NCBI GenBank assembly: GCA_964404925.1
Contig: CAYOLW010000003.1
Span: forward strand, 575 to 64,574
Direction of reading: 5' to 3'
DNA: 64,000 nucleotides
Source of the DNA: an uncultured Candidatus Saccharibacteria bacterium
GTDB lineage: Bacteria; Patescibacteriota; Minisyncoccia; Phycocordibacterales; UBA9973
In this document: one piece after another, positions 1 to 53,290 of the stretch
Layout: each line of letters begins with the position of its first letter
Numbering within the stretch: the stretch's first letter is position 1
Notes under the pieces: model-generated
Told to the model about the DNA's origin: nothing
What the model saw: only the letters and a program-made list of their open reading frames with translations
Databases searched by the model: none
Position numbers and translations under genes: made by a program

Positions 1-304
1 GGTCACGATAATAATCAAGTCCACATTCACCAATACATACAACCTTTGGGTTTTTGCCCAGTTCTTTATATTTCTCTAAATCAAATTCTTCTTCAATATT
101 GTCCGCCGGATGCTGCCCAACACCAGCCCAAATAAAATCAAATTTTTCAGCGATTTCTACTGCTTCTTTTGAAGTCTCATAATCAACACCAATTGTAATT
201 GTACCAACCTCATTCTCTACCATGCGACGAATCACCCCTTCCCTGTCATCCTTGAGGGGGTTTAGATTTAAATGCGAATGTATATCTATGTATTTAATTT
301 CCAT
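1..304 (-). CDS. TatD-family metal-dependent hydrolase (N-terminal part; gene continues beyond window start)
   Basis: Reverse-complement of 1-304 translates MEIKYIDIHSHLNLNPL...WAGVGQHPADN...VVCIGECGLDYYRD. These are the TatD signature motifs (HxH, GxHP, GE.GLDY). Not in the ORF track because it is truncated by the window edge. ATG at 302-304 (complement) abuts the metG stop. Confidence 0.75.
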   Translation of the reverse strand, partial: MEIKYIDIHSHLNLNPLKDDREGVIRRMVENEVGTITIGVDYETSKEAVEIAEKFDFIWAGVGQHPADNIEEEFDLEKYKELGKNPKVVCIGECGLDYYRD

Positions 305-10825: not shown

Positions 10826-11470
10826 TTATATTTCAAAATTTTTAAGTTCCTCTATATACGGTGCGGCAGTAGCATCATTTATGTCTTCTGGTTTAATGTT
10901 ACATTTAGCAAATATTTGGTTTTCTATTTCTTTACCACAATCTACCAAATGCTGACGCTCCAAGTTGTCAAAGCCGCTTCTGCCAGCATACCGCCTGCGG
11001 GCTTCTTCCATACGTTCTTCATACGAAACAATTCCAAAAGGGTTCACTCGCATATCAGCATGATGCATTATTTTTAGCAGCACATCATCGGATGCTGCGT
11101 GTTCACATAAAAGAGTGAAATGATTCTGATCAGCTAATGCCCCAATTTCTTCTGCTAATCCTAACTCCCGGATTATTTGTATGGTTGCATTATGTTCATT
11201 TTCACCATATTTTTCTCTATATTCACCCTGTACAGCTTGCCAATACTCCACCCCTTCTGGTTCAAACATATCTGGAAAAACATCAAACTTGAATTTGAGT
11301 ATATTACCCATATCATGCAGTAGGCATACGGTGACTATTTTATTTTTATCAATCGTATCTCCCTGCCAATTATCACAAATCATCGCTGCTACTGCTGCAA
11401 CCCGCAGCATGTGCATTTGCAGTGTAGGTGGGATTTTATAATTTTTATATATTTCAGAAATCGTCCGCAT
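10826..11470 (-). CDS. HD-domain phosphohydrolase
   Basis: HMLRVAA...LLHDMGN (H...HD motif) and a later H..D pair. 214 aa. Confidence 0.6.
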   Translation of the reverse strand: MRTISEIYKNYKIPPTLQMHMLRVAAVAAMICDNWQGDTIDKNKIVTVCLLHDMGNILKFKFDVFPDMFEPEGVEYWQAVQGEYREKYGENEHNATIQIIRELGLAEEIGALADQNHFTLLCEHAASDDVLLKIMHHADMRVNPFGIVSYEERMEEARRRYAGRSGFDNLERQHLVDCGKEIENQIFAKCNIKPEDINDATAAPYIEELKNFEI

Positions 11471-14400
11471 TATTTTTCAATCTTAATTTTAAATACTAGA
11501 TTTTCTACTTTAATCTCAACACCATCATTAGGGACGAAGGACAGGTCTTTGGCACCAACTGTCTTTACAAAATCATCTTTGAATTTTTCTACTAATTCCT
11601 TTCCGGTGTTATCTGTTTCAATCAACAGACTAACCATATCACTTGGTAATAGATTCATTTGTTTACGGATGTCTTGCACAGCGCGAACCAATTCTCGATA
11701 GTCCCCTTCTTGTTTTAATTCAGGAGTTATTTCTGTATCTATTTTAATTTCTCCAGCCTTCACTTCTTTTACATTCAATTCATCTTTTATAATTTCTATA
11801 TATGAAGCAGCTGGTAACTCAGGCATAAAGAAAGCGGCCAGAGGTTGCCTAACTGGCAAGTTATTTACTTGTCTTTCTTTCATTCCAAGCGAAATGAACT
11901 CTCGAACTTTCTGCATTTCCGCTGTGTCAAAGGCACCCTTTGGTATTTGTGGCCAATTAGACAAATGCACACTCTCTGCGTCACCATCTACTTTCAACTT
12001 CTGCCACACATCTTCGGCGGCAAATGGTGCAAATGGTGCAAGTAGTTTTGCAATATTCTTTAGTACGAAATACAACGTTGCTTTAGCATTAACATCACCT
12101 TCCTTTATTCGATCTCGTGAACGACGCAGATACCAAGTAGACAAATCGCCCATGAATTCGCGCATGGCACGGACTGGCTCAAGCACCTTGTACTCATCCA
12201 TGTTCTTAGTGGTAAGTTCTGTTAGTTCAGCAAGTTTTGCCAATATCCACTGATCAAGCACATTCGCTTCCCCGAGATTGGACCTCAAAGACCCCAGAGG
12301 TCCAACCTCTGCATCCTTTTCTAAATTTTTATCTCTGTACAATTCATAGAAGGCCAGCACATTATAGTAGAGTCCAAAAACTTGGCGATTTAAATCAAGT
12401 ACAGTCTTCTCATCAAAATTCTTAGACTCACCTGGTTGATTAACTGAATACATCCACAGACGCAGAGTATCAACTCCGTATTTTTCAATCATACTCCATG
12501 GGTCAACGATGTTACCTAATGATTTAGACATTTTCTTACCCTTGGCATCGAGCAAGTGACCAAGGCAGATAACATTGCGGTATGCTTTTCCGCGACCCAT
12601 TAGTACACCCACAGCATGTAGCGTGTAGAACCACCCTCGGGTCTGATCGATAGCTTCAGAAATGTAATCAGCTGGGTAGCCAGGACCATCGACGAAATCC
12701 TTGTTTTCAAATGGATAATGATCCTGAGCAAAAGGCATCGCACCCGAGTCGAACCACACATCCATCACTTCTTTAGTGCGATGAAATTCTTCTCCATCTT
12801 TTTCCAAAACAACCTCATCGATATATGGTCGATGGAAATCAAGTTCATAATCTTCATTATGTGGTATTGGTGCAAAATCAAGATCTCGGCATTCTGCATT
12901 TTTAAATCTTTCAAAACCTTTGATAAACACACCCCTGTCTTGATCGGGTACATAGTCATGGCTATTCGGCGTATGTATACCAGAGGCAACAAAGAAAAGC
13001 CAAGCTGTGCCACCATGGGTCACAAATAATATATTTTTATTTTTATATTTTTCTTCTATTTCATACAGTGCTGCGCCTACTCGCTTTAACACATCAGCGA
13101 ATGATTCCCCGCCTGGTATTTTATGTGTAAACCAGTTCGCACCAACGCTCGAAACATAATCATGATAATCACGCCAACTTTTACCATCAAGTTCCCCTGG
13201 GTTAATCTCACCCAAACGCGGGTCTTCTACGACTTGGTCTTGAGACAATCCTAATCTATCACGTAATATTTCGGTTGTTTCTAAGGTGCGAGTAAATGGT
13301 GAAGTTATAATAAGGTCTATTTTTTTATCAGCTAGACTCTCCGCTGTCTTGGCTACATCTGCGCGTCCTGTTTCGGTGAGGTTGTCTTCTGCTTGTTTAC
13401 TGTAGCTCACGAGTCCGCTTTGATTACCCTCGGTGCCGCCGTGGCGCATGACGAAATATTTGTTTCCAGATTTCTTGGTATATTTTTTTAGAGTGTCGAG
13501 TGAATCAACCACAATCTTTTTACCATCACTGGCAAGCCACACCGGCAGGGGTGTTCCCCAATACCTTTCACGTGATATAGCCCAGTCCTTCACTCCATCA
13601 ATCCATTCACCAAATCTTCCCTCGCGAATATGAGACGGCTCCCAGTTAATGGTTTTATTTTCTTCGATAAGTTTCTTTTTTATTTCTGGATCGGTCATAC
13701 GCACATACCAAGAATCGCGTGCGTAGTATATAAGCGCAGTCTTGCAACGCCAACAGTGCGGATATGAGTGCTCATATAGTTCTTTATTGAAATACAGATT
13801 ATTCTCCTGCAAATATTTTATGATATCTACATCAAGAGTTGGTTTACCTTCTTCATTTTTTTCTTTTACAAATCTGCCTTCGAGGAATCCAGTACCCGGG
13901 ATAAATTTACCTTCAAGGTTCACAAGGTGGTGTTTAGGTAGTCCAACCTCGGTGCCGAGAACAAAGTCATCCTGACCGTACATCACCGCCGTATGCACTA
14001 TACCAGTACCATCTTCGGTGGTAACAAAATCAGCTGCATATACTTTGTACGCCCTGCTTTCTAACTTTTCTTTTTCAGTATCTGAAATAGTATCCGCCAT
14101 GTATGGAAAAAGTGGTTCGTATTCAAGACCAACAAGGTCTGAGCCTTTAAATTCAGATAATATTTCATAACCATCCCCTAATATAGACAGCCGAGCTTTT
14201 GCTAAAATTAAACTCTCCGGCTCTTTGAGGTCGGACCTCAAAGATTCCCCGAGGTCCGACCTCTGCCCGCCGGCAATCCTAACTTTTACATAATCAATAT
14301 CCTTTCCCAATGCTAATGCCACGTTGCCAGGCAATGTCCACGGAGTAGTAGTCCAGGCAAGAATATAAGTATTTTCTTGTCCTTTAACTTTAAACTTCAC

Positions 14401-15021
14401 ATACAAAGACAAATCTTTTACATCTTCATACCCTTGAGCAAGCTCGTGTGAAGAAAGCGCAGTCCCGCAGCGAGGACACCAGGGTACAACCTTATAATCC
14501 TTATACAGCAAATTCTGATCGTCTATTCTTTTAACCACACTCCAGAGTGATTCAATATAGCTATTATGATATGTCACATATGGATGCTTCTGGTCTACCC
14601 AGTATCCAATGCGTTCGGTAAATTTGTTCCACTGGTCGAGATACATCCATACGTTTTCTTTACACTCTTTGTTGAATTGAGCTACTCCGTACTCCTCGAT
14701 CATTTTCTTGGAGTTTAATCCGAGCTTTTTCTCTACTTGCAATTCCACCGGTAATCCGTGTGTATCCCATCCGCCTTTACGACGAACATGGAATCCCTGC
14801 ATAGTTTTGTAGCGAGGAATGACGTCTTTGAATGCACGCGCTTCGAGGTGGTGAATGCCAGGGTTACCGTTAGCTGTTGGTGGACCTTCATAAAAGACAA
14901 ACTCTTTACCAGAATTTGCTCGCTCGTCCATCGACTTTTGGAAAATATTATTTTCTTTCCAAAATTCTAATACCATCTCCTCGTTTTGTGCATATGCACT
15001 TTTTTTTATTTCCTCGCTCAT
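11470..15021 (-). CDS. ileS: isoleucyl-tRNA synthetase (type-2/eukaryote-like) carrying an internal histidine-phosphatase-like insertion
   Basis: PPTANGNPGIHH (HIGH), WTTTPWTLPGN (CP1 editing), WGTPLPVW, DVWFDSG, KMSKSLGN (KMSKS). 1183 aa. The insertion is described in the findings. Confidence 0.95.
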   Translation of the reverse strand: MSEEIKKSAYAQNEEMVLEFWKENNIFQKSMDERANSGKEFVFYEGPPTANGNPGIHHLEARAFKDVIPRYKTMQGFHVRRKGGWDTHGLPVELQVEKKLGLNSKKMIEEYGVAQFNKECKENVWMYLDQWNKFTERIGYWVDQKHPYVTYHNSYIESLWSVVKRIDDQNLLYKDYKVVPWCPRCGTALSSHELAQGYEDVKDLSLYVKFKVKGQENTYILAWTTTPWTLPGNVALALGKDIDYVKVRIAGGQRSDLGESLRSDLKEPESLILAKARLSILGDGYEILSEFKGSDLVGLEYEPLFPYMADTISDTEKEKLESRAYKVYAADFVTTEDGTGIVHTAVMYGQDDFVLGTEVGLPKHHLVNLEGKFIPGTGFLEGRFVKEKNEEGKPTLDVDIIKYLQENNLYFNKELYEHSYPHCWRCKTALIYYARDSWYVRMTDPEIKKKLIEENKTINWEPSHIREGRFGEWIDGVKDWAISRERYWGTPLPVWLASDGKKIVVDSLDTLKKYTKKSGNKYFVMRHGGTEGNQSGLVSYSKQAEDNLTETGRADVAKTAESLADKKIDLIITSPFTRTLETTEILRDRLGLSQDQVVEDPRLGEINPGELDGKSWRDYHDYVSSVGANWFTHKIPGGESFADVLKRVGAALYEIEEKYKNKNILFVTHGGTAWLFFVASGIHTPNSHDYVPDQDRGVFIKGFERFKNAECRDLDFAPIPHNEDYELDFHRPYIDEVVLEKDGEEFHRTKEVMDVWFDSGAMPFAQDHYPFENKDFVDGPGYPADYISEAIDQTRGWFYTLHAVGVLMGRGKAYRNVICLGHLLDAKGKKMSKSLGNIVDPWSMIEKYGVDTLRLWMYSVNQPGESKNFDEKTVLDLNRQVFGLYYNVLAFYELYRDKNLEKDAEVGPLGSLRSNLGEANVLDQWILAKLAELTELTTKNMDEYKVLEPVRAMREFMGDLSTWYLRRSRDRIKEGDVNAKATLYFVLKNIAKLLAPFAPFAAEDVWQKLKVDGDAESVHLSNWPQIPKGAFDTAEMQKVREFISLGMKERQVNNLPVRQPLAAFFMPELPAASYIEIIKDELNVKEVKAGEIKIDTEITPELKQEGDYRELVRAVQDIRKQMNLLPSDMVSLLIETDNTGKELVEKFKDDFVKTVGAKDLSFVPNDGVEIKVENLVFKIKIEK
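12273..12308. repeat. in-frame palindromic mini-element inside ileS (gagattggacctc-aaagacccca-gaggtccaacctc)
   Basis: 13-nt arms that are reverse complements with one mismatch around a 10-nt spacer. Reads through in-frame as ...GSLRSNLGEA.... Confidence 0.6.
14225..14261. repeat. in-frame palindromic mini-element inside ileS (gaggtcggacctc-aaagattcccc-gaggtccgacctc)
   Basis: Perfect 13-nt inverted repeat around an 11-nt spacer. Shares the ggacctcaaaga core with the 12273 copy. Encodes ...SDLGESLRSDLKEP.... Confidence 0.65.
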
Positions 15022-15039: not shown

Positions 15040-15250
15040 AATAATTAAAAAAGCTCGCCCTTGAAAAACATAAATGTTTTCCAAGGGCGAGCTTGCAAGT
15101 TCGTTTATGGTGAACTTGTGAACCGCGGTACCACCTTAGTTTGATCTTTTTTATAGCTATTACGGGCCACCCGTCGGGTTCTAGTCAGCTTTCGCCTTTC
15201 TTCCCAAAGCATCAGACATGATGTGTCTTCAAGCGCTTGTATCTTCACAA
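15040..15250 (-). promoter_or_regulatory. T-box riboswitch leader upstream of ileS (probable Ile specifier)
   Basis: On the minus strand, AAACTAAGGTGGTACCGCGG (plus 15123-15142) matches the conserved T-box sequence AAnnnGGGUGGnACCGCG. It is followed by the terminator helix gctcgcccttgg...caagggcgagc + UUUUUU, ~30 nt before the ileS ATG. An AUC-A is present in the 5' half (plus 15219-15222) as a candidate specifier. Confidence 0.7.
15046..15092 (-). terminator. intrinsic terminator of the ileS T-box leader (attenuator)
   Basis: 11-bp stem gctcgcccttg/caagggcgagc with T6 on the transcribed (minus) strand. Confidence 0.7.
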
Positions 15251-28550: not shown

Positions 28551-30224
28551 TTATACTATATCAACAATTCTAAGACGTAACTCTTCTCTACCTCGGAAAC
28601 GAGACAAATCAAAAGTCGCGTATAAATCCACATGCGCACCTTGAGAAATATCTGCTTTAAATGATTCAGGATTAGAGAAAAATGATATTGCTTCGACTTC
28701 TTTGCCTTGTTCATTAACCACAGTAATAGATAAATGTTCCCCGCTGTTATTTTTCCCGAACTGTCGAGCTTTTGTTATTTTTACCTTTTCAAATAAAAAA
28801 ACAGGCTTTGGATTACCCAGACCAAACGGTGCCATTTTACCTATTTCTTTCCAATTCTTCATTGTTACCATGTTTAAATCAAGTTTCAAATCAAAATTTA
28901 TTTCACTTCCTTCAGATGGCTTTTTGACTTTATGAAAGCTTTCGTTTAATGATTCTTCCAGAAAATGAATCTTGTTTGTATGCACACTAAATCCACCTGC
29001 CAGTTCATGCCCACCATAATTAATAAAATATTCAGTACTCTGAGACATCAACTCGACTACAGACACAGACCCAGGAGAACGGCATGAACCCTTAATGACA
29101 TCATTTTCATCTTTGGCCCAAACAAAGACTGGCTTATCGTATTCATCCATAACCTTCCCTGCCACAAGCCCAAGCACCCCCACCTTCCACTTGGGATTAC
29201 CTATTACCACCACATCACCCAACTCACGCTTCTCAAAGCTGTGTTTAACTTCTTTCATGATTGAAAGTACAGTATGCTTACGCTCGTCATTAATTTTTGT
29301 CAGGTGCTCTGCCAAACCTACCGCCTTTTTGTCATCCTTTGATGCCAGTAATTCATACGCCCGCATCGGGTCGTCCATGCGTGAAGCTGCATTGATTCGT
29401 GGAGTCAGCATAAATCCAACATCATCTTCGTTCAAATATTTCTGATCTATCTTCATAATACTCAGCAGTTTTTGCAATCCTGGACGGGGAGATTTACGCA
29501 GAACCATCAATCCAAAATATGCTATAGCCCGATTTTCACCAGTGAGCGGAACCATATCAGAAAGAGTTGCAAGTCCAGCCATATCAAGCAACCACTTTTC
29601 CCAACCTTCTGGAGTTCCCGGACGTTGGACGTCGAGACTCCCAGACGTCCAACGTCCGGGAACCAACCCTTGTACAAGTTTAAACACTACCCCTGCACCA
29701 CACAGCATGGACTCAGGATATTCATCTGTTTTTGGATTTAAAATAGCGAAAGCTTTCGGCAATTTTTCGTGAGGTAAATGGTGATCGGTTACGATGACAT
29801 CTATGCCATACGAATTAGCCAAATCAATTTCTTCTATGGCAGTGGTGCCTAGGTCGATGGTGATTATTAAATTTACATCTTTATCTTTGAACTCCTCTAT
29901 GGCCTCTATGTTTAACCCGTAGCCTTCAGCGTTGCGGCTCGGTATATATATTTCAAAGTTTTTAAAACCAATTTTTTCAAAAAAATCATGTATAATTACC
30001 GCCCCTGGTATACCGTCCGCATCATAATCGGCGTACACCACCACTTTTTCATTAGCATTTATGGCGTGCATTATTCGGGTACAAGCTTTTTCCATATCAC
30101 GCATTAAAAAAGGATCGTGCATATCGCGTTCATAATCTGGGTTTAAAAAAATATCTGCTTCCGCTTCAGTCTTTATCCCTCTCTTTATCAAAAGTTCCCG
30201 TAGTAGTTCATGAAATTTACCCAT
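28551..30224 (-). CDS. recJ: single-stranded-DNA-specific exonuclease RecJ
   Basis: DHH motifs: VVYADYDADGIPG, DVIVTDHH, DHH-associated DHHA1 C-terminal region (GGHELAGGFS). 557 aa. Confidence 0.85.
   Translation of the reverse strand: MGKFHELLRELLIKRGIKTEAEADIFLNPDYERDMHDPFLMRDMEKACTRIMHAINANEKVVVYADYDADGIPGAVIIHDFFEKIGFKNFEIYIPSRNAEGYGLNIEAIEEFKDKDVNLIITIDLGTTAIEEIDLANSYGIDVIVTDHHLPHEKLPKAFAILNPKTDEYPESMLCGAGVVFKLVQGLVPGRWTSGSLDVQRPGTPEGWEKWLLDMAGLATLSDMVPLTGENRAIAYFGLMVLRKSPRPGLQKLLSIMKIDQKYLNEDDVGFMLTPRINAASRMDDPMRAYELLASKDDKKAVGLAEHLTKINDERKHTVLSIMKEVKHSFEKRELGDVVVIGNPKWKVGVLGLVAGKVMDEYDKPVFVWAKDENDVIKGSCRSPGSVSVVELMSQSTEYFINYGGHELAGGFSVHTNKIHFLEESLNESFHKVKKPSEGSEINFDLKLDLNMVTMKNWKEIGKMAPFGLGNPKPVFLFEKVKITKARQFGKNNSGEHLSITVVNEQGKEVEAISFFSNPESFKADISQGAHVDLYATFDLSRFRGREELRLRIVDIV
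29615..29662. repeat. in-frame palindromic mini-element inside recJ (ttcccggacgttggacgtc-gagactccca-gacgtccaacgtccgggaa)
   Basis: Perfect 19-nt inverted repeat around a 10-nt spacer. Translated in-frame as ...PGRWTSGSLDVQRPGTPEG.... Same arm-spacer-arm architecture as the two ileS elements. Confidence 0.65.
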
Positions 30225-36058: not shown

Positions 36059-37407
36059 GTATATAATATTGGTGAAAAAGAAACAGTAGTAGTGGTGGAT
36101 CTACTAGATAATATTGTATTCATACTAGTTAGTGTTGCTTTATAACCAGAAGTTATCCGAGTAAATCCTTCTTCATCGTTCGACTGAACATCTATATGAC
36201 CGTGTGGTGCATAAACTATTAAAGCAGAAGCAGAAGAACCCGTACTAATCAAATCTACAGCATCCATTGCGCCCCCATTTTCCGCATCATTATTCTGCGA
36301 TACTAATACAACAAAAGAGTCAGGTCCAATACCCGTCGAAGCAGAACGCGTATTAATTGAAATCTGACTGCTAGTTGTTCGATTGGTTGGCTTATCAGCT
36401 ATAACCATAACACTGCTGCCAACTGGAATACTAGGACCCACTAACAATCGCGAAGAACCAGTCATATTAATATTACCTTTTACCCAAACAGGACCATTAA
36501 TAGTCACTTGAGCTGTATCCGAAATATTCACAGAATCGCAGTTAATCATAATGGGACCCAAGACTGTATTAGTATTTAGATTGTAAGGACAAACACCTTT
36601 GTAAATTCCACCAGCTAAAGCTGCTTGTTCCATAAATTCTATTGCCGAGTCGGTAATTGGTAATGGATATTCTTGAGTATCTGGTGAGTTATCAAAACAC
36701 CTTGGATTAGGACACAATGCCCCAGAAACAAGAGATGTACCATCAATGCTTTGGTAATAAGCAGAGCCAGCGATGACAGAATTTATTATTGTGTGGGCTA
36801 CCGCATTGTATGAACTATTTATAATTCTTAAATTACTAATAAGTCCACTAGATCCACTAGAAGTGATTCCACCACTATTTACTATATTAGAATTTGAACC
36901 AGTCACTGGGCCTTGTGAAGTAATGGTACCGAATACTGAAGAATTTCCTCCTTGTGCCAACAATCCTCCTTTTCCAAACTGGAGGCCTGACTGGAACACT
37001 ATTCCAAATGGAACTTGAATTTCAAAAACAATCTTTCTATTTCGGTTAGATATATTAGCGGAAGAAATTACATTTATCTGACCATCAACCATTGAGTCAA
37101 TTTCTACATTGGCACTATCATACCCAAGAGATAAATTGTAACTACCAGTATTTATTAAAGGTAAATTTTGTAAAAGACGGTAATAAACATCTTCAACACC
37201 AGATTCAGCCAAATAATAACTACGCCCAGATAGCCAGGAATCTCTAACTATTCGGTAATCACGCACAGTAGGAGAAACAAGCCCAGCCATTGTAGTAAGT
37301 GTTATGAAAATAAAAAGCACCACAGAAAACAACATGGCTTGTCCACTGTTTTTAGATATATTATTTGTTTTTTCTTTCAGCTTATTTATTAAAAAAAAGT
37401 TAGACAT
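36028..37407 (-). CDS. PilX-N-like pilus-associated protein (paralog 1 of 3)
   Basis: KNSGQAMLFSVVLFIFITLTTMAGLVSP N-terminus, encoded by DNA identical to paralog 2 over 36 nt. Ends ...KEWKEI. Confidence 0.6.
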   Translation of the reverse strand: MSNFFLINKLKEKTNNISKNSGQAMLFSVVLFIFITLTTMAGLVSPTVRDYRIVRDSWLSGRSYYLAESGVEDVYYRLLQNLPLINTGSYNLSLGYDSANVEIDSMVDGQINVISSANISNRNRKIVFEIQVPFGIVFQSGLQFGKGGLLAQGGNSSVFGTITSQGPVTGSNSNIVNSGGITSSGSSGLISNLRIINSSYNAVAHTIINSVIAGSAYYQSIDGTSLVSGALCPNPRCFDNSPDTQEYPLPITDSAIEFMEQAALAGGIYKGVCPYNLNTNTVLGPIMINCDSVNISDTAQVTINGPVWVKGNINMTGSSRLLVGPSIPVGSSVMVIADKPTNRTTSSQISINTRSASTGIGPDSFVVLVSQNNDAENGGAMDAVDLISTGSSASALIVYAPHGHIDVQSNDEEGFTRITSGYKATLTSMNTILSSRSTTTTVSFSPILYTWDIKEWKEI

Positions 37408-37904
37408 TAATAACTTCCCCTCAGAACCAAAGTATTGTTAAAGTCCTCGGTACGAGTTGAACCATAACGATTAGACTTAACAGTCATAGTAATCCTAATG
37501 GCTATGCTGTTAGTTGTAGTGATTTGGGTAAAATTAAGAGCTGAAATAGCTAAATTAGTAGAATTTAAATTACCAGTCAACACATCATTTTCACGTAACT
37601 CTAAATTAGTGCCATTTAAAGTAAATGTTATAGTTTTTGGGTTATCACTAGAATCTTCGGTATTTAATTTTAAACTACTTGAGCTAATAGTATTAACACT
37701 ATTAGCTAGTCGTATTTCTCTTGATATACGTTCAAGCACTTGATTAGTTTGATTAATATCAGCAGTAACTTGAGTGTCCCTGAACGCAGAGATCATTGTT
37801 AATGTTGCTCTAACAAGAATTAATGATACAATCGCGAAAAGTGAAATATAAAAAAGCGTTTCTATTAAAGAAAAACCTTTATTTTTTTTATTTAAATTAA
37901 TCAT
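37407..37904 (-). CDS. type IV (pre)pilin
   Basis: Class III signal: MINLNKKNKG|FSLIETLFYISLFAIV (Gly-1, Glu+5). 165 aa. Confidence 0.8.
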   Translation of the reverse strand: MINLNKKNKGFSLIETLFYISLFAIVSLILVRATLTMISAFRDTQVTADINQTNQVLERISREIRLANSVNTISSSSLKLNTEDSSDNPKTITFTLNGTNLELRENDVLTGNLNSTNLAISALNFTQITTTNSIAIRITMTVKSNRYGSTRTEDFNNTLVLRGSY

Positions 37905-38407
37905 TCAAATAAATCAGTTAAATATAATGACAGCGTCTTGGTTTTAATATTACCGCCTTCGGGCCAAGAAACAGACACAGTAACAAGTCTCGTACCAGCA
38001 TCTTCTGTTCCACCAGAAGAAACTATATCACCTGTAGTACTATCGCGATTTACATACGCAAAATTTATTGTTCGAGTAAAAATACCATTTGAAGTGGCTT
38101 CATTTTTATCAGTTGTGTATAACCACTCTGTTCCATTAAATTTTAAATAATGAGTAGTCCCTACTGTAGCATCGGATAATGTTGTCCAATTTTTATCTCT
38201 AATAACTCTAACAACTTCAGCTCCTTCTTCTAAAAGAAAAGAGGCTTGTGCGTAGTGAGTGGACTGTCTAGCAACAAAAACAGATTTATTGGCGACAGCC
38301 ATAGCCGATAAAACAGCAATAGTAACAATAGTCACAGCCACTAGAATTTCTATAGAAAGAGAGCCTTTTTTATTTTTTAAAAAAAAATTCATTATTTTAA
38401 TTAACAC
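37901..38407 (-). CDS. type IV (pre)pilin / minor pilin
   Basis: ...KNKKG|SLSIEILVAVTIVTIAVL (Gly-1, Glu+5). 168 aa. Confidence 0.75.
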   Translation of the reverse strand: MLIKIMNFFLKNKKGSLSIEILVAVTIVTIAVLSAMAVANKSVFVARQSTHYAQASFLLEEGAEVVRVIRDKNWTTLSDATVGTTHYLKFNGTEWLYTTDKNEATSNGIFTRTINFAYVNRDSTTGDIVSSGGTEDAGTRLVTVSVSWPEGGNIKTKTLSLYLTDLFE

Positions 38408-38891
38408 TAATTATCCCAGTGGCACCTATTGTTATTGTTTTAGTTGCGTTTGGTACAGCCACAGTTATTGTACCAGTCTTGTTGGGCACACCAGTCAGCC
38501 TAGAAAAATACACGTCATTACCTCCACCAGATAAACTTATATTTGAAATATATGCAGGTAAAGCAATATTTATAGTTTCATCAGTACCAGATGGATAACT
38601 AGAGCCTTTAAATATTATAAGGGCATTGGTACTAAAATGCACGCCATAAGTCGAAGAATCTATTGAAGCAAGTGTTTGAGAGTTTGCTTTTTTTAATACA
38701 GAAATTATTTCAGTAGTTGCTGATTGAAGAGATTGACGATTGCGTAAGGTAGAAAAACTTGTCAAAACGACGGCCAGTATAACTAACAAAATTACTACAG
38801 CAACAAGAATCTCAATTAGAGAGACACCCTGTAGTTTTGACTTATTAATCATGGTCAAATTATAACTTGATTTAACTTTTTTACCAAGCAA
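38397..38891 (-). CDS. type IV (pre)pilin
   Basis: ...KSKLQG|VSLIEILVAVVILLVILAVV (Gly-1, Glu+5). 164 aa. Confidence 0.8.
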   Translation of the reverse strand: MLGKKVKSSYNLTMINKSKLQGVSLIEILVAVVILLVILAVVLTSFSTLRNRQSLQSATTEIISVLKKANSQTLASIDSSTYGVHFSTNALIIFKGSSYPSGTDETINIALPAYISNISLSGGGNDVYFSRLTGVPNKTGTITVAVPNATKTITIGATGIISVN

Positions 38892-40109
38892 TTAAATACT
38901 GTCTAGAACACTGTAAAGTGGTGTAATCATTGAGATAGCAAAAAAACCAACAGCTGCACCAATAAAAACCATGAGTATTGGTTCAATGACAGTCGATAGA
39001 TTTTTTGTTTTGTTTTCTATTTCAGTTTCATAATATGTAGCTATTTGAACAAGCATCTCAGATAATTTACCTGTTTCTTCACCAACTTGAATCATTTCAG
39101 ACATCATTATCGGGTACAGTTTAACATTTTCTTCAAAAACTTTAGAAAAAGGTGCACCTTTTTCTACCTGGTCACGAGATTCAGTAAGGACCCTTTTATA
39201 GTATATATTTTGTACCACGTCTCGGGTTATTTCTATAGCTCTAGTGATAGCCACACCTGATACTAAAAGCGAGGCTAATGTTCGGGCTGTTCGAGCGGTA
39301 TTTAATTCTTTAGCAATATTGCCAACTATAGGGATTCTAATAACGATATAATCTAAATAAGGCTTCATGAATGAAGCACGCAATAAAAAAACGACACTTA
39401 CGATTAAAAAAACAACAACCCCAAATGCCAGAATTGGACTCTGTGAAACAAAATTAGCTATATTGATTACAAATTGAGTTGAAGCGGGTAATTTGGCATT
39501 AAGTTCATCGAAGGTTTTAGCTAAAGTTGGTACAACAAAAATAAACATAAGGACACCAATAATCAACATAGCAGACATAATAACACCAGGATAAATCAAT
39601 GCTCCTTTTACTTTTTTTGTTAGAGCATTTGCCTTGTCTAAATTTTGACCAACTTCATTTAGAGACTCAGCCAAATTACCAGATTCCTCCCCTGCTCTAG
39701 CCATGGATATAAACAAAGGTGAAAAAACTTTTGGATATTTAGCAAGACCAGATGATAGAGTGCCTCCAGCATTTATTTCAGCCGACAAAGAAACTAATAT
39801 GTCATTTAACTTTTTATTTTTTGTTTGTTTTTGAAGAACAGAGAGGGCCCGAGACAAAGACAGTCCAGCCTTGATCATCCCACTTAAGTTCTTGGTCATA
39901 AGAACCAAATCTCCTGTTTTTACACTACCGAATATATTACCAAAGTTAGCCAAAAACTTATCCATACCTGCCTTGTGTTTTATTTCTATAGAAATAGGAA
40001 TATTACCACGAGAATGGAGTTCTCTGGAAACAGAAAATTTATCAAGTGATTCGATCTCGCCTGAAATTATTTCCCCTGTTTTTAGTTTTGCTTTATATGT
40101 AAATAACAT
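38892..40109 (-). CDS. pilC: type IV pilus platform protein PilC (GspF family)
   Basis: 405 aa, two T2SSF-type repeats with 3 TM segments. Directly downstream of the PilB ATPase. Confidence 0.85.
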   Translation of the reverse strand: MLFTYKAKLKTGEIISGEIESLDKFSVSRELHSRGNIPISIEIKHKAGMDKFLANFGNIFGSVKTGDLVLMTKNLSGMIKAGLSLSRALSVLQKQTKNKKLNDILVSLSAEINAGGTLSSGLAKYPKVFSPLFISMARAGEESGNLAESLNEVGQNLDKANALTKKVKGALIYPGVIMSAMLIIGVLMFIFVVPTLAKTFDELNAKLPASTQFVINIANFVSQSPILAFGVVVFLIVSVVFLLRASFMKPYLDYIVIRIPIVGNIAKELNTARTARTLASLLVSGVAITRAIEITRDVVQNIYYKRVLTESRDQVEKGAPFSKVFEENVKLYPIMMSEMIQVGEETGKLSEMLVQIATYYETEIENKTKNLSTVIEPILMVFIGAAVGFFAISMITPLYSVLDSI

Positions 40110-40118
40110 TTTATTCTT

Positions 40119-41867
40119 TTATTCTGAAACAACTCTGAATACTTCCTCTATAGTAGTATTACCTAAAACACATTGAAATATACCATCCTCAATCATAGTC
40201 ATCATTCCTTCTTTTTTAGCTTGCACTTCTATATCATCCTGAGAAGCACCTTTACTGATAAGTTCACGAATAGTCGTGCTGACTTTTAACACTTCATGAA
40301 TACCAACACGACTATGATAACCATCTTCTGATTCATCATTCTTTACTGCTTTAAAGAAAGGAACTTTTTCCCAAGTAGTTTTTTCATCAATAAGTTTTTC
40401 TTTTTTCAAAAAAGACATCATACGGTCTAAATCTACTAGTTTGCTCAGATTTTTTATCTCAGCTGGAGATAAAAAATACTGTTCTTTAATTTTTGTTAAT
40501 CGACGAACCAATCGCTGCGCAATAATCGTCTTTACAGTCGAAACAATCAAAAAAGGTAGTACACCCATATCTATCATTCTAGGTATTGCGCCTGCAGCAG
40601 AATTAGTGTGGATAGTGGACAAAACTAAGTGTCCAGTCAAAGATGCATTCACTGCTAAACTAGCCGTCTCTGTGTCTCGTATTTCACCAACCATGATTAT
40701 GTCGGGATCTTGACGTAGTAGACTACGCAGACCATTAGCAAAAGTTAATCCAATTTCAGGCTTTACTTGAGTTTGATTGACGCGTGGCATTTGATATTCA
40801 ACAGGGTCTTCAACTGTTGAAATATTTACGTCTGGTTTATTAAGGATCTCAAGCATAGTATATAAAGTCGTAGTTTTACCACTACCAGTAGGTCCAGTTG
40901 CCAAAATCATTCCTGTTTTTTGTCGCATGGATTCATATATCCTTTCTAGACCTTCACCATGAAAACCAAGCCCTTCAAGTGAAAAACCTCCCCCTCCCTC
41001 ATGCAAAATACGCATTACGGTCTTCTCTCCAAAAAAGGTTGGCAACGTTGAAACACGGAATGAAACCTTATCACCGTTTTGATCAATTTTGAAACGACCA
41101 TCTTGTGGTAAACGCTTCTCATCAAGTTTAAGGTTAGAAAGTACTTTAATACGGGCAGTAATACCTGAGGAAGCAGATTTATCTAGTATCATTGCTTCAT
41201 GTAACAAACCATCAATACGGTATCTAACAATTAGATCATGTTCTCCCGGTTCAATGTGAATGTCAGAAGCATTTTGCAAAATTGCGTGAAAAATAAGAGA
41301 ATCAACTATTTTGACCACCGGCAAATCTTCAGCCATTTTTTTTAACTCTTCTTCAGATTTTTCTCCCACATCCTCTTTTGAGATAGATAGCGATGCAACT
41401 TCTTTTTGTATTAAATTATCGAATTCTGCCTGTAGGCTACGCTTGTATTGCAAAAGGGAAGATTTTATTGAAGCAACATCAGTTAACCTTGGTAATATCC
41501 TAAGCTCAGATTTCTTTTTCACGAAATCTATAACAGACAAATTATCAACGTCGAGCATTGCAACTTCTAGTCCTTTGTCACTTTTTTTATAAGCAATAAT
41601 ATTGTATTTACGAGCTAATGGTTCCGGAATTAGAGACAGTATATTGAAATCAATTTTTTCGTTTACTAAGCTAACATATGGAATACCCAACACAAAAGCC
41701 TCCATTCTTTTTAAATCGTTTTCAGAAATTTTACCTTCAGACAAAAGAAGGTCAGTGAACTTTTCTTTTTTCTCGGCAGCTTTTTTACCAAGCTGGTCTA
41801 AAACATCACCATTTACCAAACCAGCATCGAGTATATATTTTTTTAGTTGTTCTTCGTTAACTTGCAC
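40119..41867 (-). CDS. pilB: type IV pilus assembly ATPase PilB (GspE family)
   Basis: N-terminal GSPII_E_N-like domain, Walker A GPTGSGKTTTLY, Asp box, Walker B/His box (VGEIRD...), no tetracysteine at the end. 582 aa. Confidence 0.9.
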   Translation of the reverse strand: MQVNEEQLKKYILDAGLVNGDVLDQLGKKAAEKKEKFTDLLLSEGKISENDLKRMEAFVLGIPYVSLVNEKIDFNILSLIPEPLARKYNIIAYKKSDKGLEVAMLDVDNLSVIDFVKKKSELRILPRLTDVASIKSSLLQYKRSLQAEFDNLIQKEVASLSISKEDVGEKSEEELKKMAEDLPVVKIVDSLIFHAILQNASDIHIEPGEHDLIVRYRIDGLLHEAMILDKSASSGITARIKVLSNLKLDEKRLPQDGRFKIDQNGDKVSFRVSTLPTFFGEKTVMRILHEGGGGFSLEGLGFHGEGLERIYESMRQKTGMILATGPTGSGKTTTLYTMLEILNKPDVNISTVEDPVEYQMPRVNQTQVKPEIGLTFANGLRSLLRQDPDIIMVGEIRDTETASLAVNASLTGHLVLSTIHTNSAAGAIPRMIDMGVLPFLIVSTVKTIIAQRLVRRLTKIKEQYFLSPAEIKNLSKLVDLDRMMSFLKKEKLIDEKTTWEKVPFFKAVKNDESEDGYHSRVGIHEVLKVSTTIRELISKGASQDDIEVQAKKEGMMTMIEDGIFQCVLGNTTIEEVFRVVSE

Positions 41868-41951: not shown

Positions 41952-44399
41952 TTATTGCCACTGACCTGTTAAGTCTGCATGCACTGATGGATTGGCTGCA
42001 TCAACAACTGTAGTTCCAGTAGGAAGTGGTAAATTAAACTTAAATGCACCTGGGTCAGCGGATAAGTTACCAAAAACATAGAATATGTCAGTTCCGGTAT
42101 AAGGCGTACTTTCATTACTGTAACCAGTAGCACCAGTAGATACAATCTTGAATACAGGAAGAACGTTTTGAGGGCTTTGAATTGTTATCGGTTTACTGAA
42201 GTTCACAGTGACTATCATTGATTTAGGGAAATTACCACTATCCCAAACCTTAGTAATTGATAAAACCTTTGGTGCATCAGCATTTTGCACAGTTACAAAA
42301 ACACTGTTTAATGTAAATTGCCCAACCGTGTTAGTGCAACTTAGTTGAAAAATTGTATCCTGTGTTAAGTTATTTATAACAATAGAACCACTTGCAACCT
42401 TCTGCCCCGTCCAAGTAGAAACAGGTGAGCTAGTAGCAGTACAAGGGTTTGAGCCGTTCATATTAGTAGTACTCCAAGTTAATGTAGTGCTACCATTCGT
42501 AACCGGATTAGGGTCTGCAGATAGTGTAATTACTGGATCTGGACCTTGTTGGACTGTTACAATTACAGATTCTGAGATTGAACCTCCTGGACCACTGCAA
42601 TCTATGCTAAATGTTGTATCTGAAGTTAGTGCAGCTTGCGTGTCCCAATTACCACTTGCTGGTCTAGAATAACCTGTAGTTGCCCATCCAGATGAACCAC
42701 CGGTAGATTTACAAGCAGTTACATTTGTAGTTATCCACGTTATTTTTGTTGTACCGTTTGCGTTAGTACTTGAAGTAAGCGACAATGTTGGTTTTATACT
42801 TACAACCACAGAATCAGAAACCATAATACCGTTTGCATTTGTACAATTAATAGTGAAGGTTGTTTGAACATTTAAACCATTAATTGTAGCTGAACCAGCG
42901 GCAACTTCGTGTGCAGTATTCCAAGAAGCTTTGTTTGGCGAACTAGTTCCGAAGCAAGTACTAACATTATTGTTAGTCCAGTACAAACTAAAACTTTCTC
43001 CAGCATCTATAGATAGAGTGTCCACACCCTCTGCTTTTAAATCAACCTCTGACATAATATTTGGAATTGCTACTCCACCATTCTGAAGTGTGTAAATAGC
43101 AATTTTTTTTAGCCCAGGTTCTACTGCTTTTATCCATGCAGCTTCATCAAAACTATGATCATTTTCATCTTCTATAAATACTCCCCATGGATCTGTACCG
43201 TAAAATCCAATGACCTCTGTAGGCCTAAACGTTCCAGTATTTATTTCATTAGAAATTTGTGTAGTAGAAAAATCCTTCGTATTTGGTGTAATGGTAGAAT
43301 TGCTTACCACATAACGCCAAGCGTAATCTTGAGAATAATATTTATTACCTATAATTTCAATTGTACCAATCCAGGCACCTGCCGTTACACCATTATCCCC
43401 TACAGCCAGGGCTAAATTATAATCTTGCGGCAAAGTAAACTTAGTACATTTTTTGTAGTTTTTCCAAGTTGGAATACCATATATTGCTACATTCATGTTT
43501 TTGCAGATAGGTTGTAAATCTGCCACCTTACCATTAGCACCAATTTTATAAGAATATAAAGTAAATACAGCATCAGCAGAAATTTTAAACTCAAAAGGAT
43601 ATCCTGAAAGTGGAATACTCGCATTTGGATTGTTGTAATTAGTCGTTATAGTATTTGACTGCCACCAAGGAGTTGTAGTTGTAGCTAAAATGTTATTGCC
43701 ATTAAGGTAGTAAACAGGCGAAGAAGTAGCAGCTCCAGTGTTAGTAAAATTTTGTGTAAGGTTCTGAGTAAGACCTGAGGTTAGTTGTGATGTGTTTTGT
43801 CCAAAGCTTAAATTCTGACTTTGTGTACTAATGTTTATAGATGAATTTGTGTTTATAGAATTATTAACCAACTGACTGGCGCCTGTTGAATTAACATCGA
43901 TACCAGTATTAGTACTCTGAGTTTGGTTAGTGCTAGACAAAGCTAGTATTGTTGGTTTACTTGCTACGGTCAAAACACTATTTAAGACTTGTTGAGCTGT
44001 TGGATTTAAAGAAGCCTTCCTTAAATTCTGATTTTGGGTTTGATATAAGGAACGCAAATAGGTAAGCGTTTTATTATTTGCAGTACTCAACTTAATACCT
44101 GGATAAATGTTCATGAATTTGAACGTATGTGGTCCAGCAGAACCATCGGGGACCAAACCAGCAAGTTTCTGATAAGCAATAACTGCAGATTTAGTTCCAG
44201 GTCCAAATTTACCATCAACTTTTTTATTATAAAGACCTTGGTTTACTAGATAAGCTTGAAGTGCAGATACTGCTGGACCAAAACTACCAACCTTTAAAAA
44301 CTTTACCCCGGAGTCATTATTCAAAAAAGATGAATCTGTAGCTGCACTGGCAGATATTGAGAGCAAAGAAATAATTAAAATAAAAAGATATTTTTTCAT
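41952..44399 (-). CDS. secreted protein: signal peptide + peptidoglycan-binding domain (PG_binding_1-like) + S/T/N/Q-rich linker + three tandem ~70-aa Cys-pair Ig-like repeats
   Basis: MKKYLFILIISLLSISASA. PGBD: LKVGSFGPAVSALQAYLVNQGLY..DGKFGPGTKSAVIAYQKLAGLVPDG. Ig-like repeats LYWTNNN..C...INCTN, KITWITTNVTAC...IDCSG, TLTWSTTN..C...LSCTN. Confidence 0.6.
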   Translation of the reverse strand: MKKYLFILIISLLSISASAATDSSFLNNDSGVKFLKVGSFGPAVSALQAYLVNQGLYNKKVDGKFGPGTKSAVIAYQKLAGLVPDGSAGPHTFKFMNIYPGIKLSTANNKTLTYLRSLYQTQNQNLRKASLNPTAQQVLNSVLTVASKPTILALSSTNQTQSTNTGIDVNSTGASQLVNNSINTNSSINISTQSQNLSFGQNTSQLTSGLTQNLTQNFTNTGAATSSPVYYLNGNNILATTTTPWWQSNTITTNYNNPNASIPLSGYPFEFKISADAVFTLYSYKIGANGKVADLQPICKNMNVAIYGIPTWKNYKKCTKFTLPQDYNLALAVGDNGVTAGAWIGTIEIIGNKYYSQDYAWRYVVSNSTITPNTKDFSTTQISNEINTGTFRPTEVIGFYGTDPWGVFIEDENDHSFDEAAWIKAVEPGLKKIAIYTLQNGGVAIPNIMSEVDLKAEGVDTLSIDAGESFSLYWTNNNVSTCFGTSSPNKASWNTAHEVAAGSATINGLNVQTTFTINCTNANGIMVSDSVVVSIKPTLSLTSSTNANGTTKITWITTNVTACKSTGGSSGWATTGYSRPASGNWDTQAALTSDTTFSIDCSGPGGSISESVIVTVQQGPDPVITLSADPNPVTNGSTTLTWSTTNMNGSNPCTATSSPVSTWTGQKVASGSIVINNLTQDTIFQLSCTNTVGQFTLNSVFVTVQNADAPKVLSITKVWDSGNFPKSMIVTVNFSKPITIQSPQNVLPVFKIVSTGATGYSNESTPYTGTDIFYVFGNLSADPGAFKFNLPLPTGTTVVDAANPSVHADLTGQWQ

Positions 44400-44426
44400 T
44401 GTCTAATGATTAATGCTAATAATAAA

Positions 44427-47438: not shown

Positions 47439-47505
47439 TACCCAAAGAAAAACACCCTGAGGAGAGTCCAGAGTGTTTCCTTGTGTGTCCTTATATATTT
47501 ATATT

Positions 47506-50337: not shown

Positions 50338-50386
50338 TAATAATTAATACTAATATATCAAATTCACCCACAATAAAAATCTACCT

Positions 50387-50860: not shown

Positions 50861-50891
50861 TACTACCTACAACTCTCTAAGAGTTTTTAAA

Positions 50892-53258: not shown

Positions 53259-53290
53259 ATAACTTGTAAATAATTAATAATACCTAAAAA

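What the first reader, a model, noticed from the sequence alone, without database searches (positions are those of the whole stretch)
29615..29662. Third in-frame palindromic element, inside recJ, with the same arm-spacer-arm architecture
ttcccggacgttggacgtc-gagactccca-gacgtccaacgtccgggaa is a perfect 19-nt inverted repeat with a 10-nt spacer. It is inserted in-frame into recJ and translated as PGRWTSGSLDVQRPGTPEG, between the DHH and DHHA1 regions. The arm core GGACGTC / GACGTCC parallels GGACCTC / GAGGTCC of the ileS elements, and the spacer gagactccca resembles aaagaYYCCC. This suggests a family of hairpin elements that tolerate or prefer in-frame insertion in essential genes.
Basis: seen in the sequence. 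Interest (0 to 1): 0.55.

Follow-up and report, generated by a model that had tools for sequence, protein, structure and literature searches.

The report
In-frame palindromic repeat inside recJ
A 50-base perfect DNA hairpin inside the DNA-repair gene recJ belongs to an apparently undescribed family of small palindromic repeats that sit in frame inside housekeeping genes of ultra-small (CPR) bacteria, much like the "selfish" palindromes known from Rickettsia.

Summary
Window 29614-29663 is a perfect 20-nt inverted repeat with a 10-nt spacer. It lies inside an intact recJ gene (minus strand) and is read through without a stop.

It is one copy of a repeat family. The unit is a mini-hairpin, GASGT-YGG-ACSTC, usually present as an inverted pair 9-11 nt apart (modal length 36 nt). 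The two ileS hairpins in the window belong to the same family.

All but two are in Patescibacteria/CPR MAGs.
- About 70% lie mid-gene in long housekeeping ORFs, including uvrA, uvrB, uvrC, ligA, topA, gatB, murE, atpG, cysS and tgt.
- They occur in both orientations and all three frames.

In RecJ, the element-derived 18 residues replace an 11-residue variable loop between two helices. This is the lowest-confidence stretch of the AlphaFold model and a gap against solved RecJ. Relatives carry other palindromes at the same loop.

Three results point to mobility:
- a 94%-identical GatB with an empty site;
- identical 36-mers at non-homologous loci;
- dominance of one core variant per genome.

No target-site duplication, GTAG tag or transposase was found.

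Best reading: a new, REP/RPE-like, translated palindromic element family. How it is mobilised is unknown.

The parts
29614..29663 (.). Whole palindromic element in recJ: 20-nt perfect arms and a 10-nt spacer. It is read on the minus strand as V188..T204 of RecJ.
29614..29633 (.). Left arm GTTCCCGGACGTTGGACGTC. The outer stem is GTTCCCG and the conserved 13-nt core unit is GACGTTGGACGTC (29621-29633), which is itself a mini-hairpin GACGT-TGG-ACGTC.
   Evidence: The same outer stem GTT(C)CCGG occurs in L001/L028 and L124.
29634..29643 (+). Spacer/loop GAGACTCCCA. It fits the family spacer consensus WAGARNYCCM on the + strand and encodes G-S-L on the minus strand.
29644..29663 (.). Right arm GACGTCCAACGTCCGGGAAC. 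The core unit is GACGTCCAACGTC (29644-29656), followed by the outer stem.
29607..29660 (-). Codons for RecJ residues 189-206 (PGRWTSGSLDVQRPGTPE). This is the element-derived segment that replaces the ancestral 11-residue loop KKYGEYFKIKD.
28551..30224 (-). Host gene recJ. It is intact, 557 aa, with DHH, DHHA1 and RecJ_OB domains. The model matches solved RecJ structures.
14217..14273 (.). Sister element in ileS. Core 14227-14263 is GAGGTCGGACCTC-AAAGATTCCCC-GAGGTCCGACCTC, with an outer helix CCGGC/GCCGG. It is translated as GGQRSDLGESLRSDLKEPE.
12274..12309 (.). Sister element in ileS: GAGATTGGACCTC-AAAGACCCCA-GAGGTCCAACCTC, with one arm mismatch. It is translated as EVGPLGSLRSNLG.
11470..15021 (-). 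Host gene ileS (1183 aa), which carries the two sister elements in variable loops.

Best explanation
The recJ hairpin is one copy of a family of small, non-coding-origin palindromic repeats that proliferate in Patescibacteria (CPR; Paceibacteria/Nomurabacteria-type genomes).

Shown:
- The building block is a 13-nt mini-hairpin, GASGT-YGG-ACSTC, with core variants GACGT/ACGTC and GAGGT/ACCTC. A possible third variant, GAAGT/ACTTC, was inferred only from a peptide back-translation (P0341) and not checked in DNA.
- The usual form is an inverted pair of units separated by 9-11 nt. The modal length is 36 nt, which is 12 codons. Some copies have extra outer stem.
- The arms have no stop codon in any of the six frames.
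- Most copies found lie in frame within variable loops of housekeeping proteins and leave the ORF continuous.
- In recJ, the element-derived 54 nt now occupy the place of a 33-nt variable inter-helix loop.

Inferred:
- These genomes have almost no intergenic space. Copies therefore survive mainly where they land in frame in tolerant surface loops, and they are translated as part of the protein.
- The elements are mobile or recently mobile. I infer that they are moved in trans, recognised as hairpins in single-stranded DNA, as REP/REPIN elements are by HUH tyrosine transposases. They may also spread by recombination after DNA uptake.
- The enzyme and the insertion chemistry are not identified.
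For: Family and specificity
- There are three copies in the window against 0 expected.
- A genome-collection scan gave about 45 fully palindromic copies. All but two are in CPR MAGs. One-strand matches in high-GC genomes look like chance.
- Four more copies with the same CCGG-extended arms were found in metagenomes, in at least two unrelated long ORFs.

In-frame and read through
- 33 of 48 copies lie at least 20 codons inside ORFs of at least 120 aa.
- Both orientations occur (18 forward, 10 reverse, 12 ambiguous) and all three codon phases are used.
- Host genes include LigA, GatB, UvrA, UvrB, UvrC, TopA, MurE, ATP synthase subunits, MnmA, TGT, ComEC, GuaA and CysS.
- Elements have a mean of 5.1 of 6 frames open.

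Lineage-specific, in loops
- RecJ.
- IleS.
- GatB.

Mobility
- GatB P0241, 94% identical to the filled L085 copy, has an empty site. The difference is 39 nt around a 36-nt core.
- The exact 36-mer GAGGTCGGACCTC-AAGGGGTCCC-GAGGTCCGACCTC occurs in uvrB, in uvrC and at a second uvrB site, in different contigs and genomes.
- The same GACGT unit sits at the same recJ codon in two clades separated by relatives that keep the ancestral loop.
- Genomes are dominated by one core variant: 11 of 11 GACGT in CAZKWN01 and 5 of 5 GAGGT in JAGOSH01.

Hairpin unit
- The two S positions within each arm are always self-complementary in CPR copies.
- Monomers and both dimer arrangements exist.
Against: - No transposase or other associated gene was found next to any copy.
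- No transposase was found in the parts of the window scanned with Pfam, which cover about 20 of the 54 ORFs of at least 150 aa.
- No IS200/RAYT-like ORF was found in 495 kb of fetched CPR DNA. This search covers only fragments of genomes, and the query sequences were recalled from memory.
- There is no target-site duplication and no GTAG tag.
- The recJ and ileS copies are not clean insertions: ancestral loop residues are missing.
- At orthologous sites the arms are far better conserved (153/156) than the flanking coding DNA (952/1264) or the spacers (39/61). This fits a constrained functional signal better than decaying junk. However, these loci were selected by exact arm matches, so the comparison is biased. 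At least one decayed copy is seen in an unbiased sample (P0290).
- Translation of the insert is inferred from ORF continuity only.
Confidence: 0.7

Rival explanations
1. Host-functional cis-element. The conserved double mini-hairpin would be a DNA or RNA signal recognised by a lineage-specific trans factor. Possible roles are a recombination, uptake, nucleoid or RNase-processing site, or a terminator when intergenic. It would be kept by selection and would sit inside genes only because there is no intergenic room.
For: - Arms are nearly invariant at orthologous sites, while flanks differ by about 25% and spacers by about 36%.
- One orthologous pair shows a compensatory T>C / A>G double change (G1).
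- The two S positions covary so that both the mini-hairpins and the long hairpin are preserved.
- One core variant dominates per genome, as expected if a binding protein co-evolves with its site.
- About 30% of copies sit at gene ends or between genes, like terminators.
Against: - The conservation statistic is biased because loci were selected by exact arm match.
- A 94%-identical GatB lacks the element, and none of the 119 other IleS homologues examined has either ileS copy.
- Positions are arbitrary loops of unrelated proteins. Orientation relative to transcription is mixed.
- Density is low, about 1 copy per 20 kb in the window.
- A decayed copy exists (P0290).
- There is no match to any Rfam family.
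Confidence: 0.17
2. Locally generated palindrome. Template switching or quasi-palindrome correction in an indel-prone loop would create the inverted repeat de novo, with no mobility.
For: - The ancestral loop was replaced rather than simply interrupted.
- Outer stems vary between copies yet are complementary, as palindrome extension by strand switching would produce.
- The same loops of RecJ and GatB hold many unrelated palindromes.
Against: - The 13-nt core, and even whole 36-mers, are identical at non-homologous loci and in different genomes.
- The outer stem GTT(C)CCGG of the recJ copy recurs in other genes.
- Local template switching cannot produce a shared sequence. It may contribute to arm perfection or extension after insertion.
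Confidence: 0.05
3. The inserted stretch is not translated. It would be an RNA-level intervening sequence, or a translational bypass element like T4 gene 60 or the mitochondrial byp elements.
For: The size (36-50 nt), the GC-rich hairpin and the location inside essential genes resemble bypass elements. This comparison is from my own knowledge and was not tested.
Against: - All 33 mid-gene copies keep one continuous reading frame through the element, although cores of 35, 36 and 37 nt occur. This would not be required if the segment were skipped.
- Arms lack stops in all frames.
- No matching take-off and landing codon pattern was seen.
Confidence: 0.04
4. Assembly or amplification artefact (a chimeric fold-back).
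For: Palindromes can arise from MDA or assembly errors.
Against: - The same family appears in dozens of independent assemblies from different projects, at orthologous codon positions and always in frame.
- The ileS copies are identical in an independent Logan assembly.
Confidence: 0.01

Closest known systems
Rickettsia palindromic elements (RPE-1 to RPE-10; Ogata et al. 2000 and 2002, from my own knowledge; summarised in PMC3733652)
   Same: Both are repeated palindromic DNA in a reduced genome. Both are inserted in frame in housekeeping ORFs that stay intact, at sites interpreted as tolerant surface positions. Neither has a known transposase.
   Different: RPE-1 type elements are about 100-150 bp (from my own knowledge), against 36-50 nt here. 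The sequences are unrelated and the phylum is different (Alphaproteobacteria versus Patescibacteria). This family is built from a 13-nt mini-hairpin unit used as an inverted pair.
REP / REPIN elements and their RAYT transposases (GTAG-tagged REPs)
   Same: Both are short GC-rich hairpin units that mostly occur as inverted dimers folding into a longer hairpin (REPIN-like). Neither produces a target-site duplication. Both show genome-specific sequence variants.
   Different: No GTAG tag is present (1 of 55 copies). No RAYT or IS200-like gene was found in the DNA examined. REPs are overwhelmingly extragenic, whereas about 70% of these copies are intragenic.
CGTC/CCTC-tagged REPs, including intragenic copies in repair and tRNA-synthetase genes (Di Nocera et al. 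2013, PMC3733652)
   Same: Units here end in CGTC or CCTC. Head-to-head dimers predominate. There is no dedicated transposase. Intragenic copies encode 10-30 aa, notably in uvrA/B/C, recB, polymerases and tRNA synthetases. This parallels recJ, ileS, uvrABC and cysS here.
   Different: The published units have 8-9 bp stems starting with A/T pairs, 4-5 nt loops, a CCA tail, and the CGTC tag outside the stem. Here CGTC/CCTC is part of a 5-bp stem around a YGG loop. The family was not reported from CPR.
Mitochondrial GC clusters, double-hairpin elements and byp elements (from my own knowledge)
   Same: Both are small GC-rich palindromes invading AT-rich compact genomes, including coding regions.
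   Different: The mitochondrial elements are organellar, and the byp elements are bypassed rather than translated. No sequence relationship is evident.

Membership tests
RPE-like in-frame palindromic repeats (defined by behaviour) | Multi-copy palindromic element within one genome and its relatives | tested here: met
   There are 3 copies in the window. There are at least 11 in the CAZKWN01 fragments and 5 in JAGOSH01.
RPE-like in-frame palindromic repeats (defined by behaviour) | Inserted inside ORFs that keep their frame and conserved motifs, and absent from orthologues | tested here: met
RPE-like in-frame palindromic repeats (defined by behaviour) | The inserted segment is expressed as part of the protein | not testable with these tools
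   This is inferred only from ORF continuity in 33 of 33 mid-gene copies.
Rickettsia RPE families proper | Sequence and size match to RPE-1..10 (about 100-150 bp; Rickettsiales) | tested here: not met
   The elements here are 36-50 nt and the hosts are Patescibacteria. A direct sequence comparison with RPE consensus sequences was not run.
GTAG REP / REPIN | Conserved GTAG tetranucleotide at one end of the unit | tested here: not met
   GTAG/CTAC lies near an end in 1 of 55 copies.
GTAG REP / REPIN | Inverted dimer of hairpin units forming a longer hairpin | tested here: met
GTAG REP / REPIN | Cognate RAYT (HUH Y1 transposase) in the genome, typically flanked by the repeats | tested here: inconclusive
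   No hit was found in 495 kb of fetched fragments. The window ORFs that were scanned, about 20 of the 54 of at least 150 aa, showed none. Whole genomes were not available.
GTAG REP / REPIN | Predominantly extragenic location | tested here: not met
   33 of 48 copies are mid-ORF.
CGTC-tagged REP (Di Nocera 2013) | Terminal CGTC (or CCTC/TGTC) tag | tested here: inconclusive
   Units end in ACGTC or ACCTC, but the tag is base-paired inside the stem rather than external to it.
CGTC-tagged REP (Di Nocera 2013) | 8-9 bp stem starting with A/T pairs, 4-5 nt loop, CCA tail | tested here: not met
   The unit here has a 5-bp stem and a 3-nt YGG loop. The dimer spacer is 9-11 nt.
MITE | Terminal inverted repeats of an IS element plus a target-site duplication | tested here: not met
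   Flanking direct repeats are at most 3 nt, which is chance level. The filled/empty GatB pair shows no duplication.
Known structured RNA (Rfam) | Match to a curated covariance model | tested here: not met
   Only chance-level matches were found.

The most novel reading that the evidence does not exclude
The 13-nt double mini-hairpin may not be junk. It could be a genome-wide signal read by a CPR-specific protein that co-evolves with it, with GACGT and GAGGT as alternative specificities. Possible roles are a hairpin-recognising recombinase or nuclease, a DNA-uptake or nucleoid factor, or an RNase site controlling mRNA fate. On this reading it is kept perfect by selection even inside essential coding sequences, so that protein loops in these minimal genomes double as carriers of nucleic-acid signals.
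Probability: 0.15. Interest if true: 0.8.

Novelty: new member of a known kind. Interest (0 to 1): 0.52.

Why it matters
In-frame 'selfish' palindromes have been a curiosity tied mainly to Rickettsia, plus scattered intragenic REPs. This result shows that an unrelated, very compact family (a 36-nt module) has colonised housekeeping and DNA-repair genes across many Patescibacteria genomes.

That extends the phenomenon to the largest uncultured bacterial radiation. It suggests a general rule for minimal genomes: with no intergenic room, small repeats persist by being translated in tolerant loops.

It also has practical consequences:
- it explains odd hydrophilic inserts (RSDLKGSRGPTS, DVGRQxxQTSDV, RWTSGxxDVQRP) seen in CPR protein alignments;
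- it provides insertion/deletion markers for strain tracking;
- it flags sites where very stable hairpins (-45 kcal/mol) sit in essential mRNAs.

If a trans-acting partner exists, the two core variants give a direct route to finding it by phylogenetic profiling.

Tried and rejected
- Rfam search of the locus and of the whole window found nothing above chance.
- The viral contig scan gave only non-palindromic chance hits in high-GC contigs.
- I looked for a common neighbouring gene at intergenic copies and found none. The neighbours are unrelated housekeeping genes.
- A Pfam scan of about 20 of the 54 window ORFs of at least 150 aa found no transposase or integrase.
- A local phmmer search with IS200 TnpA and E. 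coli RAYT sequences, recalled from memory, against 1,699 ORFs from 495 kb found nothing below E = 0.5.
- Checks for target-site duplications and GTAG tags were negative.
- Orientation relative to transcription showed no strict bias, which argues against an orientation-dependent RNA motif.
- Literature searches, including searches for the exact core sequences, found no description of this family.
- I considered a loxP/FRT-like 13-spacer-13 recombinase site, a CRISPR repeat, an integron attC site and an SD/anti-SD hairpin. I dropped all four because the copies are dispersed singly, there are no extrahelical bases, and the GACGT variant loses any SD resemblance.
- The comparison of arm versus flank conservation is reported, but I discount it because the loci were ascertained by exact arm matches.
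- The look-up of encoding contigs found no record for RecJ P0001 or for the 788-aa window protein.
Full report
**1. The observation**

The window reads ...gGTTCCCGGACGTTGGACGTC-GAGACTCCCA-GACGTCCAACGTCCGGGAACc... at 29614-29663. The repeat finder reports two 20-nt arms, 100% complementary, 10 nt apart. This is the longest perfect inverted repeat in the window.

With up to three mismatches allowed, the arm occurs nowhere else in the window, and shuffles give none.

A hairpin scan of all 64 kb for GC-rich stems of at least 10 bp returns essentially four things:
- this element;
- two hairpins in ileS (12274-12309 and 14227-14263);
- the palindrome at 15051-15094, which is a terminator (section 9).

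Folded as RNA, the recJ element gives -45.2 kcal/mol (z = -7.6). As DNA it gives about -27 kcal/mol (z about -8).

The window is about 37-40% G+C, so the element is a GC-rich island.

**2. Host gene and organism**

The element lies in a 557-aa ORF on the minus strand (28551-30224) with DHH, DHHA1 and RecJ_OB domains. The catalytic motifs are intact, and the AlphaFold model (mean pLDDT 86) superposes on solved bacterial RecJ structures.

The closest homologues are RecJ proteins of Candidatus Nomurabacteria / Paceibacterota MAGs. The window therefore comes from a CPR (Patescibacteria) bacterium.

The element is translated as V188-PGRWTSGSLDVQRPGTPE-G207.

**3. Lineage-specific replacement of a variable loop**

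In an alignment of 120 RecJ homologues, the segment between GF(I/V) and G(W/A)EKW is normally 11 residues (consensus KKYGEYFKIKD). The window has 18 unrelated residues there.

At the DNA level, the close relative L004 (P0003, 85% identical) has 33 nt where the window has 54 nt, with no residual similarity.

Solved S. aureus RecJ (8y30) aligns with a gap exactly opposite GRWTSGSLDVQRP.

In the model, residues 188-207 are coil between helices 176-187 and 208-223. The block 191-200 has the lowest confidence in the N-terminal half, 57.

The same loop carries different insertions in other relatives:
- P0002 has another palindrome, AAGGACTGTCCTT-GAAATCTGGG-AAGGACAGTCCTT;
- P0013, P0014, P0022, P0023 and P0070 have an FLSAELA..KQSSAAK type;
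- P0097 has a clean 12-aa insert.

The loop is therefore a permissive hot spot.

**4. A family, not a one-off**

The three window hairpins share the core GASGT-YGG-ACSTC / GASGT-CCR-ACSTC and a purine-then-pyrimidine spacer.

RecJ of P0007 (L001/L028; 76% identical overall in the homologue search, 78% with the loop masked) carries two units:
- a monomer of the recJ-type unit, GTTTCCGGACGTTGGACGTCTGGA, starting at the same codon as in the window;
- immediately downstream, a dimer with exactly the arms of the window's ileS element: GAGGTCGGACCTC-TAGAGAGCCC-GAGGTCCGACCTC.

I scanned one genome per species for 185,579 species with GGACSTC-N10-11-GASGTCCRACSTC.
- Hits matching on both strands (full palindromes) number about 45.
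- All but two (Raoultibacter and Nocardia, both with non-self-complementary S positions) are in MAGs labelled Paceibacterota, Nomurabacteria, Liptonbacteria, Patescibacteria or Saccharibacteria.
- Some 'Saccharibacteria' labels are doubtful, because those loci are 75-80% identical in DNA to Paceibacterota loci.
- One-strand hits lie in high-GC Actinomycetota and similar genomes and are what chance predicts.

A metagenome scan for the CCGG-extended arms of the recJ copy found four more copies. At least two lie in unrelated long ORFs of 943 and 293 aa, provisionally read as PurL- and PyrF-like from sequence motifs and not checked against Pfam. One of these shares the outer stem GTT-CCGG.

Monomers, 9-nt spacers and the reverse arrangement (CCR arm first) also occur.

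In every CPR copy the two S positions within an arm are complementary. The mini-hairpin, a 5-bp stem around YGG, is therefore a conserved feature in addition to the long hairpin.

**5. Behaviour in genes**

Of 48 dimers, 33 lie at least 20 codons inside ORFs of at least 120 aa and are read through. The rest sit at gene ends or in short spacers.

Pfam identifies the following host proteins:
- DNA repair and topology: NAD-ligase, UvrA (two sites), UvrB (two sites), UvrC (two copies in one gene), topoisomerase I, a Xer-like recombinase;
- translation and tRNA: GatB, MnmA, TGT, CysS;
- other: MurE, ATP synthase alpha/beta and gamma subunits, ComEC, GuaA, a SAM methyltransferase.

RecJ and IleS in the window add to this list.

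Both orientations and all three phases are used. This gives recurrent peptides such as RSDLKGSRGPTS, DVGRQ..QTSDV and RWTS..DVQR.

The arms contain no stop in any of six frames. Whole elements average 5.1 open frames, against 4.7 for spacer-shuffled controls.

The modal span is 36 nt, or 12 codons. The recJ copy, at 50 nt, is among the longest.

Both ileS copies are absent from all 119 other IleS homologues examined and lie in indel-prone loops.

**6. Evidence for mobility**

(a) *GatB.* An unbiased sample of 120 homologues of a filled copy shows the ancestral loop KH-DRGD-FS in most of them.
- The 94%-identical P0241 has an empty site.
- About ten others carry GACGT-type units in slightly different registers.
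- One looks decayed (P0290, DVGQQNSPLSDV).
- Several carry other palindromes.
- The filled and empty DNA differ by 39 nt around a 36-nt core, with no duplication.

(b) *Identical copies at different loci.* The identical 36-mer with spacer AAGGGGTCCC occurs in uvrB (L029, L094), in uvrC (L053) and at another uvrB site (L119).

(c) *Independent gains in recJ.* A RecJ tree with the loop masked places the window next to P0002, P0003 and P0004. P0003 and P0004 keep the ancestral loop, and P0006/P0007 lie outside this group. The shared GACGT unit at the same codon therefore reflects two gains or a lateral transfer.

(d) *One variant per genome.* Genomes tend to carry a single core variant: 11 of 11 GACGT in CAZKWN01, and 5 of 5 GAGGT dimers in JAGOSH01.

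**7. What remains open**

No target-site duplication or GTAG tag is present.

No neighbouring or nearby transposase was found. However, only fragments of genomes were visible, and only part of the window's ORFs were scanned.

At seven orthologous sites the arms are 153/156 identical, against 75% for flanking coding DNA and 64% for spacers. One pair shows a compensatory change. Taken at face value this would suggest constraint or concerted evolution. Because the loci were retrieved by exact arm matches, I treat it only as a lead.

A functional-signal reading therefore cannot be excluded. I give it about 0.15-0.2.

Translation of the insert is inferred from frame continuity, not shown.

**8. Comparison with known systems**

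The behaviour matches Rickettsia palindromic elements and the intragenic REPs catalogued by Di Nocera et al. They noted CGTC/CCTC-tagged units, head-to-head dimers, no dedicated transposase, and a striking presence in repair genes and tRNA synthetases.

The architecture here fails the specific definitions of the GTAG-REP, CGTC-REP, RPE and MITE families. It has a 5-bp/3-nt mini-hairpin, the tag lies inside the stem, the module is 36 nt, and about 70% of copies are intragenic.

Full-text searches, including the exact core sequences, found no description in CPR.

I classify it as a new member of a known kind.

**9. Verdict**

The finding is real and correctly interpreted in outline. The element is best explained as a translated copy of a REP/RPE-like palindromic repeat family that is widespread in Patescibacteria. 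Its mobilisation mechanism is unknown.

Interest is moderate. The phenomenon is not categorically new, but it is a clean, apparently unreported extension to a major uncultured lineage, and it comes with a testable route to the trans-acting partner.

Noticed in passing:
- IleS in this clade carries an internal histidine-phosphatase domain.
- The 15051-15094 palindrome is the terminator of a probable divergent T-box leader for ileS.

Noticed in passing
window 11470-15021 (minus), roughly aa 520-720 of IleS: The isoleucyl-tRNA synthetase carries an internal histidine-phosphatase (PF00300 His_Phos_1) domain. All 120 closest IleS homologues in Paceibacteria-type genomes list the same domain, so it is a clade-wide fusion or insertion.
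   Followed up: partly
window 15051-15094 and 15080-15242 (minus strand): The 21-nt inverted repeat AAGCTCGCCCTTGAAAAACAT/ATGTTTTCCAAGGGCGAGCTT is followed by a T-run and lies just upstream of the ileS start. It follows a GGTGGTACCGCG T-box motif. Rfam T-box scores 24 bits (E 0.0012), well below the gathering score of 93. This is probably a divergent T-box leader with its terminator.
   Followed up: partly
RecJ loop (window 29607-29660) and orthologues P0002, P0012-14, P0022-23, P0070, P0097, P0114; GatB loop in P0244-P0346: The same surface loops of RecJ and GatB are occupied in different relatives by several unrelated palindrome families. Examples are FLSAELA..KQSSAAK, AAGGACTGTCCTT..AAGGACAGTCCTT, and a GAAGTTGAACTTC type inferred from EVELRG..KFNFG. 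Many small palindromic families therefore seem to share this lifestyle in these genomes.
   Followed up: partly
window 41952-55776 (minus): A tandem cluster of five proteins of 356-1003 aa, each with a PG_binding_1 domain (near the N-terminus in four of them) and otherwise unannotated. They lie next to a type IV pilus gene set (T2SSE, T2SSF, N_methyl pilins at 37407-41867).
   Followed up: no
loci L010, L016, L089, L096, L097, L104 (assembly CAZKWN01) versus L011, L029, L037, L053 (JAGOSH01): Each genome is dominated by one core variant: 11 of 11 GACGT type versus 5 of 5 GAGGT type. The window itself has both, with two GAGGT in ileS and one GACGT in recJ.
   Followed up: partly
L016 about 1219-1260 (gatB): Upstream of the full element there is a partial extra unit, CCAGACGTTGGAAAAATTACA, that duplicates the start of the arm. 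It suggests local slippage or nested insertion at the element border.
   Followed up: no
L020 408-444 versus L075 5787-5822: Orthologous methyltransferase genes carry different core variants (GACGT versus GAGGT), in different reading phases, at the same protein position just before KFLNLFGYTG. This implies independent insertions or replacement at one site.
   Followed up: no
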